In this document: positions 10,105 to 49,474 of the stretch, piece after piece | Layout of the letters: the number at the start of each line of letters is the position of its first letter | Numbering within the stretch: position 1 is the stretch's first letter | NCBI GenBank assembly: GCA_965287045.1 | Contig: OZ336873.1 | Location: forward strand, 40,486,001-40,550,000 | Direction: 5' to 3' | Length of the DNA: 64,000 nucleotides | From: Carcharhinus amblyrhynchos | Taxonomy: Eukaryota | Position numbers and translations under genes: made by a program | Notes under the pieces: model-generated | Databases searched by the model: none | Told to the model about the DNA's origin: nothing | The model's input: only the letters and a program-made list of their open reading frames with translations

Positions 10105-11994
10105 AGGCAAACACACCTGGCCGTCCCATTGTATTGGGCAATGGGATTCTGTGTGAGAACCTCTCCGGCTACGTTGAGGGCATCCTGAAACCCATTGTAC
10201 AAAGAACCTCCAGCTTTTGTTGCGACACTACAGACTTCCTACGGAAACTCAGCACACATGGAGCAGTTGAACCAGGGAGACTCCTCGTCACAATGGATGT
10301 CTCAGCGCTCTACACCAATATCCCCCACAACGATGGAATTGCTGCGACTGCCTCAGTACTCAATGCTGACAACTGCCAGTTTCCAGATGCAATTTTACAA
10401 CTCATCCGCTTTATCCTGGACCACAATGTCTTCACCTTCAACAACCAGCTTTTCATCCAGACACACAGGACAGCCATGGGGACCAAATTCGCACCTCAAT
10501 AGGCCAACATCTTCATGCACAGGTTCGAACAAGACTTCTTCACTGCACAGAATCTTCAACCGATGCTATACACTAGATACATCGATGACATTTTCTTCCT
10601 TTGGCTTCGTGGTGAACAATCACTGAAACAACTATATCAACAAGTTCCACCCCACCATCAGACTCACCATGGACTATTCCCCAGAATCGGTTGCATTCTT
10701 GGACACAAGCATTCCCATCAAGGACGGTCACCTCAGCACCTCACTGTACCGCAAGCCCACAGATAACCTCACAATGCTCCACTTCTCCAGCTTCCACCCT
10801 AAACATGTTAAAGAAGCCATCCCCTACGGACAAGCCCTCTGTATACACAGGATTTGCCCAGAAGAGGAGGATCGTGACAGACACCTCCAGACACTGAAAG
10901 ATGCCCTCATAAGAACAGGATATGGCGCTTGATTCATTGATCGACAGTTCCGATGCGCCACAGCAAAAAACCGCACCGACCTCCTCAGAAGACAAACACA
11001 GGACACGGTGGACAGAGTACCCTTCGTCATCCGGTACTTCCCCAGAGCGGAGAAGCTACGACATCTTCTCCGGACTCTTCAACATGTCATTGATGAAGAC
11101 GAACATCTTGCCAGGGCCATCCCCACACCCCCACTTCTTGCCTTCAGACAACCACACAACCTCAATCAGACCATTGTTCGCAGCAAACTACCCAGCCTTC
11201 AGGGGAACAGTGACCACAATACCACACAACCCTGCCACAGCAACCTCTGCAAGACATGCCGGATCATCGAGATGGATGACATCATCACACGTGAGAATAC
11301 CATCCACCAGGTACACGGTAAATACTCTTGCAACTCGGCCAACGTTGTCTACCTGATACGTTGCAAGAAAGGATGTCCCGAAGCATGGTACATTGGGGAG
11401 ACCATGTAGACGCTACGACAATGGATGAATGAACATCGCTCGACAATCACCAGCAAGACTGTTCCCTTCCTGTTGATGAACACTTCAGCGGTCACGGGCA
11501 TTCAGCCTCTGACCTTCGGGTAAGCATTCTCCAAGGCGGCCTTCACAACACACAACAGCGCAGAGTCGCTGAGCAGAGACTGATAGCCAAGTTCCGCACA
11601 CATGAGGACGGTCTCAACAGGGATCTTGGGTTCATGTCGCACTATCTGTAACCCCCGTGACTTGCCTGGGTTTGCAAAACCTCACTTACTGTACTGTCTG
11701 GAGACAATACACATCTCTTTAACCTGTGATCAGTGCTCCTTCCACTCACATTGTCGGCCACTTTAGGACTTGAACAGCAGGTTAGGTGTAAAGATTCGCA
11801 TTCTAATCAGTAATCTGTAAACTGTCTGTGCTTTATATGCTCTGTCTGAGGCCAGAACTCTCCATTCACCTGAAGAAGAGCTTAACCTCGAAAGCTTGTG
11901 AGTTTACTATCAAATAAATCGGTTGGACTTAAACCTGGTGTTGTCAGACTTTTTACTGTGTTTACCCCAGTCCAATGCCGGCATATCCACATCA
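10105..11994 (+). mobile_element. 5'-truncated Penelope-like element (Neptune-type), RT + GIY-YIG endonuclease, disabled
   Basis: PGRPIV, MDVSALYTNIP, GTKFAPQ*ANIFM, RYIDD, FLD, LYRKPTD, C-x4-C-x2-C linker (PCHSNLCKTC, typical of Neptune), NVVYLIRC...WYIGET; stops at 10500-10502, 10930-10932 and 11407-11409, frameshifts near 10636 and 11454; 3' pseudo-LTR with AATAAA. Confidence 0.93.
11866..11901 (+). ncRNA. minimal hammerhead ribozyme motif in PLE 3' pseudo-LTR
   Basis: TCAC-CTGAAGA-A-GAG-CTTAAC-CTC-GAAA-GCTT-GTGA: CUGANGA and GAAA cores, helix I TCAC/GTGA, helix II GAG/CTC, palindromic AAGCTT in place of helix III. Confidence 0.8.
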
Positions 11995-12255
11995 GGATAA
12001 GTACAGCACAGGCTAGATACAGAGTAAAGCTTCCTCTACACTATCCCATCAACAGTCCCAGGGTAGGTACAGCACGGGGTTAGATACAGAAATAAAGTTC
12101 TCTCTATACCAAGGCAGCCAACATTCTCAGGGCAGGGACAGAACATATTAGATACAGAGTAAAGTTCTGCCAACACAGTCTGATCAAACAGCCCCTGAGC
12201 AGGTACAGCATGGGGTTAGATGCATAGTGAAGCTCTCTGTACACCAACAACATTC
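11995..12255. repeat. minisatellite of about 63-66 bp, about 4 units (one more partial unit at 10057-10106)
   Basis: Repeating CAGGTACAGCA(C/T)GGGGTTAGATACAGAGTAAAGCT...CCCATCAAACA. Confidence 0.85.
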
Positions 12256-12540
12256 ACTATACAACCCTTGGGCCACTTGTCTCTTGTGACTGAAATGTGA
12301 GTCACAGCCACAGAAACAAGGGGAAAGACTGCTAATGGCAGTCTCTTTTGGTTTCTCTTTTTGTTCTCTTTTGTGCACAGTTCCTATTGTGTTTATCCTT
12401 TATAATCTATTTTGTACCTTACATACCAAGATACCTTCTTAAAGACAAACCAGAAGACAAAATGCTGGAAAGTCTCAGGCAGTCTGGCAGCATCTGTAAG
12501 GAGAGAAAAGAGCTGACGTTTCAAGTCCAGATGGACTCAA

Positions 12541-47686: not shown

Positions 47687-48708
47687 TTGGTGGAGTTCTC
47701 TCATTTTGGCAATAAGTCCCATGGCGGGGCTGGGATCGTGGATTTTTTCCCACTGCAGAGGCCGGTGGGAAAAATTGCCAAAACTTCCGGCCCATTATGC
47801 TCCTGGTTTTTTTGCACCGTATTCTTTGACTGGGTAGGCCTAATTTTTTATTTATTAGTGTTACAAGTAAACTTACATCAACACTTCATGAAGTTACTGA
47901 GAAAATCCCCCATATGCCACACTCCGGCACCTGTTTGAGTACACTGAGCATGGCCAATGCACCTAACTTTTGGACTGTGGGAGGAATCCAGAGCACCCAG
48001 AGGAAACCCGCACAGACACAGACAAGGAACATGCAGCCTCCACACAGACAGTGACTCAAGCCAGGAATCAAACCCAGGTCCCTGGCACTGTGAGGCAGCA
48101 GTGCCAACCACTGTGCCACCCGGGTAGCATGGCAGCATAGTCTGCCATGCTACCTGGGTGCCATACTGAAAAAGCAACAAGCTGACTCATTGTTGAAGAA
48201 AGACCTCTTGAAAATGAAGATAAATGTCTGGGAGCCCTCTGAGACCGGAAGATGGATTGCCTGAGGAAGAATATGGATGTGCAGAACATTCTAAGTCTGA
48301 AAGATGGACCCCCTCAAGGATACCGAATCTGGAACATCTACCTACTGATGCTCCCCTGACCCACTGGTGTGGTGTTCCATGGACCAGTGTCACAGGCTGC
48401 CTCCATCTTGAACTCCCGAGACAGCAAGGCATTATTCAGGTGAGTCCCAATAACTGCATGCCACATTGTTCCAAATGTGTTTTGCGGCAGAGATTCCAGT
48501 GAGGGGGCGGTTCGGGCCTTTATCTATATCCCATGAACGGGATGCAAATAAGATTCATGCCGGTCTCCATCAGGTTTTCTGACCTGCCACGGTGGACACC
48601 AGCAGAACATCCTATAGTAAGTTTACGCGGGTGTGAAACCAATTTTGGGGCCTCTCACCACATTGCCCTCCCCACATCTGTTATTGAATCCGTGGGTAAG
48701 TTCCATCC
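47687..48708. mobile_element. Harbinger-type non-autonomous element hosting a V-SINE
   Basis: Degenerate ends GGTGGAGTTCTC / GGGTAAGTTCCATCC; GC-rich interior. Confidence 0.45.
47845..48128 (-). mobile_element. V-SINE with alternative tail (same as 461-746)
   Basis: Reverse complement: GGTGGCACAGTGGTTGGCACTGCTGCCTCACAG...CAGTAACTTCATGAAGTGTTGATGTAAGTTTACTTGTAACACTAATAAA. Confidence 0.88.
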
Positions 48709-48846
48709 TGTGACTTAGCTCTGTTAGTATTTGATTTGACTTGATTTGATTTATTATTGTCACGTGTATTAACATACAATATTGTTTCTTGCATGCTATA
48801 CAGACAAATCATACTGTTCATAGAGACAAATCATACTGTTCATGCT

Positions 48847-49474
48847 TCCCGAAGCATGGTACATTGGGGAGACCATGCAGACGCTACGACAACGGATGAA
48901 TGAACATCGCTCGACAGTCACCAGGCAAGACTGTTGCCTTCCTGTTGGCGAACACTTCAGTGGTCACGGGCATTCAGCCTCTGACCTTCGGGTAAGCATT
49001 CTCCAAGGCGGCCTTCACGACACACGACAGCGCAGAGTCGCTGAACAGAGACTGATAGCCAAGTTCCGCACACATGAGGACGGTCTCAACAGGGATCTTG
49101 GGTTCATGTCGCACTATCTGTAACCCCCGTGACTTGCCTGGGTTTGCAAAACCTCACTTACTGTACTGTCTGGAGACAATACACATCTCTTTAAACTGTG
49201 ATCAGTGCTCCTTCCACTCACATTATCAGCCACTTCAGGTCTTGAACAGCAGGTTAGGTGTAAAGATTCGCATTCTAATCAGTAATCGCTAAACTGTCTG
49301 TGCTTTATATGCTCTGTCTGAGGCCAGAACTCTCCATTCACCTGACGAAGGGACTAACCCCGAAAGCTTGTGAGTATATTATCAAATAAATAGGTTGGAC
49401 TAAAACCTGGTGTTGTCAGACTTTTTACTGTGTTTACGCCAGTCCAACGCCGGCATACCCACATCATGACTACT
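48847..49474 (+). mobile_element. 5'-truncated Neptune-type PLE, second copy (GIY-YIG C-terminal half plus pseudo-LTR)
   Basis: PEAWYIGETMQTLRQRMNEHRS...VGEHFS...RRVAEQRLIAKF...GLNRDLGF; nearly identical to 11376-11994, and open where copy 1 has a stop and frameshift. Confidence 0.93.
49338..49373 (+). ncRNA. minimal hammerhead ribozyme motif in PLE pseudo-LTR
   Basis: TCAC-CTGACGA-A-GGG-ACTAAC-CCC-GAAA-GCTT-GTGA; intact catalytic core. Confidence 0.82.

What the first reader, a model, noticed from the sequence alone, without database searches (positions are those of the whole stretch)
11866..49373. Two PLE hammerhead ribozymes with a compensatory base-pair swap in helix II
Seen: copy 1 (11866-11901) is TCAC CTGAAGA A GAG CTTAAC CTC GAAA GCTT GTGA and copy 2 (49338-49373) is TCAC CTGACGA A GGG ACTAAC CCC GAAA GCTT GTGA. 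The copies differ at the variable core position N7, at two loop bases, and at both partners of the middle helix II pair (A-T versus G-C), so pairing is preserved. Established: Penelope-like elements carry minimal hammerheads with a palindromic helix III that can cleave as dimers. Inference: the covariation points to selection for a working ribozyme in distinct, recently active shark Neptune lineages; the extra A after CUGANGA and the AAGCTT palindrome define the variant.
Basis: partly seen in the sequence, partly recalled or inferred. Interest (0 to 1): 0.7.

Follow-up and report, generated by a model that had tools for sequence, protein, structure and literature searches.

The report
Jumping-gene hammerheads with a shuffled stem
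Both motifs are real copies of a known small self-cutting-RNA signature at the end of a very common, recently active Penelope-type jumping gene; the base-pair swap is a genome-wide two-way variant of a small stem that appears to be exchanged between near-identical elements, likely by recombination, and cutting itself is untested.

Summary
Observation confirmed. Both motifs lie in the terminal repeat of broken copies of one young Penelope-like family (about 32,000 end copies; several intact 893-aa ORFs). The extra A and GAAAGCUU palindrome are not a new variant: the 2014 consensus has them and a turtle row matches exactly. The scan met such hammerheads in other genomes before. The swap is genuine: in 91 consecutive copies the pair is A-U 48, G-C 36, G.U 5, mismatched 2. 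But it is one old dimorphism, not many independent compensations, and it does not mark lineages: both states occur on all three flank backgrounds, and copies with identical 532-nt flanks carry different helix II. Helix II differs about ten times more than synonymous sites, and hammerhead sites conflict with 65-75% of body markers (body sites 0-32%), which points to patch recombination. For selection on catalysis: fixed core, and A, C or U but rarely G (2.4%) at the cut base of a sister family. Against strict selection: 13% of copies carry an uncompensated helix I mismatch, copies are made from uncut RNA, and copy 1 is predicted to misfold. Known kind with one testable twist.

The parts
10105..11997 (+). 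Copy 1: 5'-truncated Penelope-like element (C-terminal RT, CX4CX2C linker, GIY-YIG, 3' UTR, terminal repeat with long tail); broken by stops and frameshifts
   Evidence: 94.5% identical to an intact genomic copy over 1867 nt; tblastn in three frame pieces with three stops
11864..11903 (+). Hammerhead 1: helix I 5' strand 11864-11869, core 11870-11876, extra A 11877, helix II 11878-11880 with 11887-11889 (A-U middle pair), GAAA 11890-11893, palindromic helix III 11893-11896, U17 11897, helix I 3' strand 11898-11903
   Evidence: sequence; numbering by the consensus of PMC4209133; fold
11897..11898 (+). Predicted cut site of hammerhead 1 (after CUU); not shown to be cut
   Evidence: position inferred from hammerhead numbering (established knowledge)
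11913..11918 (+). AATAAA 15 nt after the predicted cut, possible polyadenylation signal
   Evidence: sequence; kept in the sister family; function inferred
48847..49478 (+). Copy 2: short 5'-truncated end of the same family (last 91 codons, 3' UTR, terminal repeat, start codon of the next unit at 49466-49468)
   Evidence: 96.9% identical to an intact copy; flanks 0.004 changes per site from locus L115
49336..49375 (+). Hammerhead 2: helix I 49336-49341 with 49370-49375, core 49342-49348, extra A 49349, helix II 49350-49352 with 49359-49361 (G-C middle pair), GAAA 49362-49365, U17 49369
   Evidence: sequence; folds into helices I and II
26979..27159 (.). Third, older head-to-head end stub of a sister family; its hammerhead (on the - strand) has lost G12
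   Evidence: blastn 73-81%; sequence printed

Best explanation
The two motifs are minimal type I hammerheads in the terminal repeat of two broken copies of a young, high-copy Penelope-like retrotransposon family, predicted to cut only as dimers, and the A-U/G-C swap is likely one old two-way variant of a fast-changing helix II that recombination moves as a short patch between co-active elements. Shown: anatomy, copy numbers, pair counts, the fixed core, and the decoupling of helix II and the cut base from both flanks. Inferred: (1) two RNAs pair through the AGCU palindrome and swap helix I strands, which opens a cut after the base at position 17; (2) cutting is weak or late, because the DNA copies run through the cut site and so were made from uncut RNA; (3) selection acts only on elements that transpose and keeps the core, a non-G base at 17 and a 3-5 bp hairpin of almost any sequence; (4) the patch lies between about 50 nt before the core and 6-7 nt after the cut and most likely moves by template switching during reverse transcription. 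The window copies are dead remnants 37 kb apart with no close partner, and are unlikely to cut.
For: Family size and youth: 27,808 + 4,166 exact 22-nt end matches; six of ten fetched long-ORF loci hold a 917- or 951-codon open frame with the start at the same motif, 893 aa; pS 0.025, pN 0.0033 among 32 open ORF ends. Pairing: in 91 whole hammerheads of 100 consecutive copies, pair 10.2-11.2 is A-U 48, G-C 36, G.U 5, A.C 1, G.A 1, across 32 different helix II strings. A.C copies look private: 26 of 32 sit on G-C-type loops (hand count) and the partner arm keeps the paired form in L066, L067, L071, L139; 22 of 67 G.U copies share one loop, a small wobble lineage (hand count). A sister family shows a second swap at pair 10.4 (G-C 19, A-U 6, G.U 3, A.C 2 of 30). 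Core: G5, A9, extra A, A13, A14, A15.1, U16.1 unchanged in 90 of 90; most departures are CpG decay at G8 (7) and G12 (9). Cut base: U 75, A 15 of 90 here; in the sister family A 37, C 35, U 28 of the first 100 rows (hand count) and G in 183 of 7775, as the NUH rule predicts (PMC3884650, passages). Decoupling: both states on each of three flank backgrounds (18/11, 7/11, 23/11 A-U/G-C in the consecutive sample) while upstream and downstream markers agree in 144 of 147 typed rows; identical 532-nt flanks with two helix II types six edits apart; four hammerhead marks conflict with 65-75% of 20 body sites, body sites 0-32%, +6 30%, in 31 independent young insertions. Uncut template: 22 of 29 near-full-length copies run upstream through the cut, 1 starts at it; Frangieh et al. 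found the same in vitro for the anole element (PMC11167929, main text).
Against: No cleavage was measured. 4,166 of 31,974 end copies (13%) have U1.2 changed to C with no compensation in 22 readable of 30 loci, including open-ORF copies L144 and L145, so a weakened helix I does not stop amplification. The fourth helix II pair is broken in 24 of 91 copies. The flank tree is poorly resolved (1 of 65 inner branches at 95 or more). The 31-insertion panel was drawn largely from best protein hits, and one of its telling hybrids is rare: 0 of the first 100 of 1089 copies of that helix type carry the other clade's +6 base. The four hammerhead marks are linked and count as about one test. Paired arms of single insertions show no clear excess of helix II differences (34 of 91, about 26% expected from a 2.5% background, in a sample enriched for rare helix variants).
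Confidence: 0.7

Rival explanations
1. Helix II is a mutation hot spot, not a recombining patch: slippage in its G and C runs and hairpin-templated correction remake the same paired strings again and again, without exchange between elements and with little selection on the stem.
For: Many types are one or two steps apart and differ by C-run length. Template switching can create paired double changes in one event (PMC8794818, abstract and introduction). H17 and position +2 also recur on several backgrounds.
Against: The same 12-14-nt strings recur on different flank backgrounds (five strings on two backgrounds each), which would need several parallel changes either in the stem or in both flanks. 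Hairpin correction cannot explain the fixed core or the lack of G at position 17.
Confidence: 0.2
2. The hammerhead is a passenger in this family: it was selected long ago or merely parasitises the element, and present lineages amplify whether or not it cuts.
For: Uncompensated helix I mismatch in 13% of copies, including open-ORF copies; copy-1 type is predicted to misfold (helix II probability 0.19 against 0.95 for copy-2 type); catalytic mutants did not affect insertion in vitro (PMC11167929); Naiads thrive without hammerheads (PMC8557442, passages); 8 of 9 Xenopus dimers did not cleave (bioRxiv 2026.07.22.740005, results).
Against: No amplified type in the samples alters a catalytic base, while the neutral positions N7 and H17 and the stem vary freely among young lineages.
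Confidence: 0.25
3. One reading: the swap marks separate lineages, each independently selected for a working ribozyme of a distinct variant.
For: Strong correlation of the two partners; copy 1 belongs to the more diverged background and copy 2 to the young one.
Against: Both states on every background and in both ORF clades (A-U/G-C 4/11 and 13/2); nearest relative of copy 2 by flanks carries the A-U state; the 'variant' features are in the published alignment.
Confidence: 0.1

Closest known systems
Minimal hammerheads (min-HHR) of metazoan PLE terminal repeats, Cervera and De la Pena 2014 (PMC4209133; main text parts 1-2 and supplement file 2 part 2 read)
   Same: CUGANGA-H core, G10.1-C11.1, GAAA, loopless palindromic helix III, H at 17, place in the terminal repeat, great within-genome variation with compensatory changes; turtle row has the same core and GAAAGCUU, lamprey row the same UCAC/GUGA helix I.
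   Different: Helix II here is short (3-5 bp). No shark or chimaera term was found in the searched supplement files (file 1 not searchable). The paper notes the variability but, in the parts read, does not measure it against flanks or report patch exchange.
Poseidon element of Anolis (PAc), Frangieh et al. 2024 (PMC11167929; main text parts 1-2 read)
   Same: Two alternative 3' ends (tail), head-to-head arms, copies made from RNA not cut at the hammerhead.
   Different: There the hammerhead overlaps the start codon; here the start lies 97 nt after the cut and the protein has the CX4CX2C linker that Poseidon lacks.
Neptune and Nematis clades of EN+ PLEs (Craig et al. 2021, PMC8557442; passages read)
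   Same: RT followed by CX2-5CxxC linker and C-terminal GIY-YIG with two internal cysteines; 5' truncation, partial tandems, inverted arm, tail.
   Different: No RT tree against named elements was built, so Neptune versus Nematis rests on the vertebrate distribution reported in bioRxiv 2026.07.22.740005.
Dimer-cleaving PLE hammerheads, Lunse, Weinberg and Breaker 2017
   Same: Short palindromic stem III, dimer cleavage, as summarised in review PMC6765202 (passages).
   Different: Paper not held; whether it covers this type is unknown.

Membership tests
PLE minimal hammerhead (min-HHR) | CUGANGA and GAAA core boxes with G10.1-C11.1 | tested here: met
   both window copies; G-C in 84 of 91 copies
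PLE minimal hammerhead (min-HHR) | unpaired base between A9 and 10.1 | tested here: met
   A in 90 of 90; consensus H
PLE minimal hammerhead (min-HHR) | palindromic 15.2-16.2, no stable helix III | tested here: met
   GCT in 86 of 91
PLE minimal hammerhead (min-HHR) | helix I closes the motif (type I) and base 17 is A, C or U | tested here: met
   6 bp in both window copies; H17 U 75, A 15 of 90; weakened by an A.C mismatch in 13% of family copies
PLE minimal hammerhead (min-HHR) | lies in the terminal repeat of an RT + GIY-YIG element | tested here: met
   (Pfam RVT_1 E 1.8e-06 and GIY-YIG E 3e-04, both just under the curated cut-off; atlas features 0.98)
PLE minimal hammerhead (min-HHR) | self-cleaves as a dimer | not testable with these tools
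   needs in vitro assay; folding energies are only indicative
Rfam hammerhead models | score above gathering threshold | tested here: not met
   no hammerhead family among matches up to E 1; expected for a motif without helix III
Neptune clade of PLEs | CX2-5CxxC linker before a C-terminal GIY-YIG | tested here: met
   CHSNLCKTC in the intact ORF; shared with Nematis
Neptune clade of PLEs | RT groups with Neptune in a tree | not tested
   no named reference elements at hand
Non-LTR retrozyme | non-coding tandem units each with a whole type I hammerhead | tested here: not met
   the window copies are single element ends; a 288-nt array elsewhere, L253, does fit

The most novel reading that the evidence does not exclude
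The hammerhead is a recombination module: reverse transcriptase stalls at a ribozyme-cut RNA end, jumps to the paired partner RNA, copies its catalytic core and returns, so helix II and the cut base move between elements while both flanks stay linked. The mosaic would then be a genomic footprint of cleavage in vivo and of two-RNA insertion, and would explain the long-noted extreme variability of PLE hammerheads without RNA-to-RNA replication.
Probability: 0.2. Interest if true: 0.65.

Novelty: new member of a known kind. Interest (0 to 1): 0.3.

Why it matters
What PLE hammerheads do in the cell is open: they cut poorly in vitro and were dispensable for insertion in the one reconstituted system. 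This family is young, has intact elements and tens of thousands of copies with natural variants at the stem, the cut base and helix I, so it is a ready panel for asking whether cutting matters and why the motif varies so much. The two window copies themselves are ordinary remnants.

Tried and rejected
1. Intron idea: the cut is followed at once by GTGAGT and 73 nt later by CAG before the start codon. Rejected: the donor is not kept (GTGAGA 14 of 91; GCGAG 4,166 copies; GTGAGT in 0 of 30 sister-family loci). No matching joint was listed in five runs laid (15 of 31 joints shown; the single joint was a strand change); these runs are contigs from other organisms, only guessed to be RNA, and no holder was on record as RNA, so this blank is no evidence. 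2. Simple crossover hot spot at the cut: rejected, markers on either side stay linked (D' mostly 0.9-1.0). 3. Templates cut at the upstream hammerhead: no pile-up of 5' ends (1 of 29 long copies; 2 of 100 consecutive copies, one duplicated insertion). 4. GCGAG as a mark of upstream repeats only: rejected, it is in all repeats of the same elements. 5. Excess helix II differences between the two arms of one insertion: not shown; 7 of 91 pairs differ at two or more marks in a way that suggests two templates (L005, L027, L066, L170, L184, L192, L306), a lead only; 19 hand-picked pairs were left out of the count. 6. Dimer energies did not rank types in a usable way. 7. Rfam: nothing. 8. Literature searches for patch exchange or hypervariable helix II listed nothing on it; subscription papers, Lunse 2017 and bioRxiv supplements could not be seen. 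9. A covariance model was not built: the copies are too closely related to give it power.
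Full report
Observation. Both 36-nt motifs are present as written, on the + strand, and differ at the five positions named. They lie inside two 95.0%-identical element ends, 11376-11997 and 48847-49469. The bare core pattern is not above chance in the window (7 against 4.93), but the full motif occurs 4456 times in the genome and 0 times for the reversed control. Helix I extends to six pairs, and one of the two 'loop' differences is in fact the fourth helix II pair, broken in both window copies.

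The element. Copy 1 spans 10105-11997 and is a 5'-truncated, stop- and frameshift-bearing piece, 94.5% like an intact copy; copy 2 spans 48847-49478 and is 96.9% alike. The family has RT and GIY-YIG signatures, an 893-aa ORF that is open in six of ten long-ORF loci fetched, and a CX4CX2C linker, which Craig et al. give for Neptune and Nematis but not Poseidon (passages). It is young: pS 0.025 and pN 0.0033 among 32 open ORF ends, a set chosen for similarity to the query. A 22-nt end motif has 27,808 + 4,166 exact matches. Copies show the 5' truncation, head-to-head arms and two alternative 3' ends described for PLEs (long tail in 40 of 100). That the host is a shark was not tested.

Is it a new variant? 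No. Cervera and De la Pena list the unpaired base after A9, G10.1-C11.1 and the palindromic 15.2-16.2 as general features, their consensus is CUGANGAH...GAAAN-palindrome-NUH, and the painted-turtle row has the same core and GAAAGCUU. Earlier notes of this scan report the same kind in other genomes.

The swap across copies. With the loop fixed to the window type, A-U has 347 copies, G.U 67, A.C 32 and the remaining 4010 are mostly G-C; independence would give 344 A.C. In 100 consecutive copies picked only by sequence after the cut, 91 had a whole hammerhead, with 32 different helix II strings; pair 10.2-11.2 was A-U 48, G-C 36, G.U 5, A.C 1, G.A 1. But copies are not events. A.C copies look like private decay, and the two paired states could stem from one or a few old changes. 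A sister family adds a second swap at pair 10.4. Hairpin-templated double changes can also arise without selection (abstract and introduction).

Better evidence for selection on catalysis. In 90 readable copies G5, A9, the extra A, A13, A14, A15.1 and U16.1 never changed, and most core departures are CpG decay. The tolerant positions vary: N7 is C, A or U, and the cut base is U or A. In the sister family the cut base is A, C or U in about equal parts (hand count of 100 rows; 13, 9, 8 of 30) and G in only 183 of 7775, the pattern expected from the NUH rule (passages).

Evidence against strict selection. 13% of end copies carry U1.2 to C next to the cut with no compensation in 22 readable of 30 loci, and this includes open-ORF elements. 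Copy 1's loop can pair with the helix III palindrome, giving helix II a predicted probability of 0.19 against 0.95 for copy 2. Every copy that holds both the core and the tail was made from RNA uncut at that site; 22 of 29 near-full-length copies also run through the upstream site and only 1 starts at it. This agrees with the anole element, where catalytic mutants still inserted and no RNA ends were found at the cut.

The twist: helix II does not follow the element. Among young open copies helix II plus loop differs by 3.3 edits in 11-14 nt, about ten times pS, while the 3' UTR differs by 1.5%. On a flank-only tree, poorly resolved, the pair changes at least 9 times; two very different helix types share identical 532-nt flanks, and copy 2's nearest relative has the A-U state (82 of 300 hammerheads had enough flank). 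Three flank backgrounds, which I call old, middle and young from branch lengths, each hold both states, and five exact helix strings recur on two backgrounds, while upstream and downstream markers agree in 144 of 147 typed rows of these backgrounds. In 31 independent young insertions (38 before dropping 7 partner arms) four hammerhead marks conflict with 65-75% of 20 body sites, body sites with 0-32%, and position +6 with 30%. Linkage across the cut stays high. The simplest reading is exchange of a short patch that holds helix II and often the cut base. Limits: the panel is biased to best protein hits, one hybrid type is rare (0 of the first 100 of 1089 copies), the marks are linked, and paired arms show no clear excess of helix differences (34 of 91), although 7 of 91 pairs hint at two templates.

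Mechanism. Shown: anatomy, counts, conservation pattern, decoupling. Inferred: dimer cutting after base 17 through the invariant AGCU palindrome, which would let any two types pair; weak or late cutting; selection only on transposing lineages; patch transfer by template switching during reverse transcription. Whether the switch is triggered by cutting is the speculative step (0.2). The two window copies have no near partner and are most likely inert.

Verdict. A new member of a known kind. The one point a specialist may care about is the measured decoupling of the hammerhead stem from its element, which bears on the variability that Cervera and De la Pena left unexplained; searches listed no paper on it, but Lunse 2017 and subscription papers were not seen. 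Interest 0.3.

Noticed in passing
L253:2670-5815 (G000:C21:4177500-4186000): Perfect 288-nt tandem array in two opposed blocks (3.5 and 7.5 units, 100% matches) made of this family's terminal repeat and ORF start; 12 identical hammerheads of the helix I mismatch type. Looks like a newborn non-LTR retrozyme; perfect identity could also be an assembly artefact.
   Followed up: partly
L134:2797 and 5820: One full-length element whose upstream and downstream terminal repeats carry different hammerhead types.
   Followed up: partly
L174:1500 region: Near-full-length element whose 5' end falls exactly on the predicted cut site; 1 of 29 such copies.
   Followed up: yes
L005, L027, L066, L170, L184, L192, L306: Head-to-head arms of one insertion differ at two or more marks typical of other amplified types, suggesting two RNA templates per insertion.
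   Followed up: partly
window 26979-27159: Head-to-head stub of the sister family with a decayed hammerhead (G12 lost).
   Followed up: yes
window 12447-12533, 14005-14127, 26470-26596: Three pieces of another short repeat that begins with a truncated hammerhead-like stem and GAAACGTC-type box; probably a different PLE-related family.
   Followed up: no
window 12911-13501: G-rich/C-rich inverted stretch (weak Rfam miRNA-model hits far below threshold) followed by a degenerate C-rich tandem repeat.
   Followed up: no
window 11898-11970: GTGAGT right at the cut and a pyrimidine tract with CAG before the start codon look like a 73-nt intron, but the donor is not conserved.
   Followed up: yes
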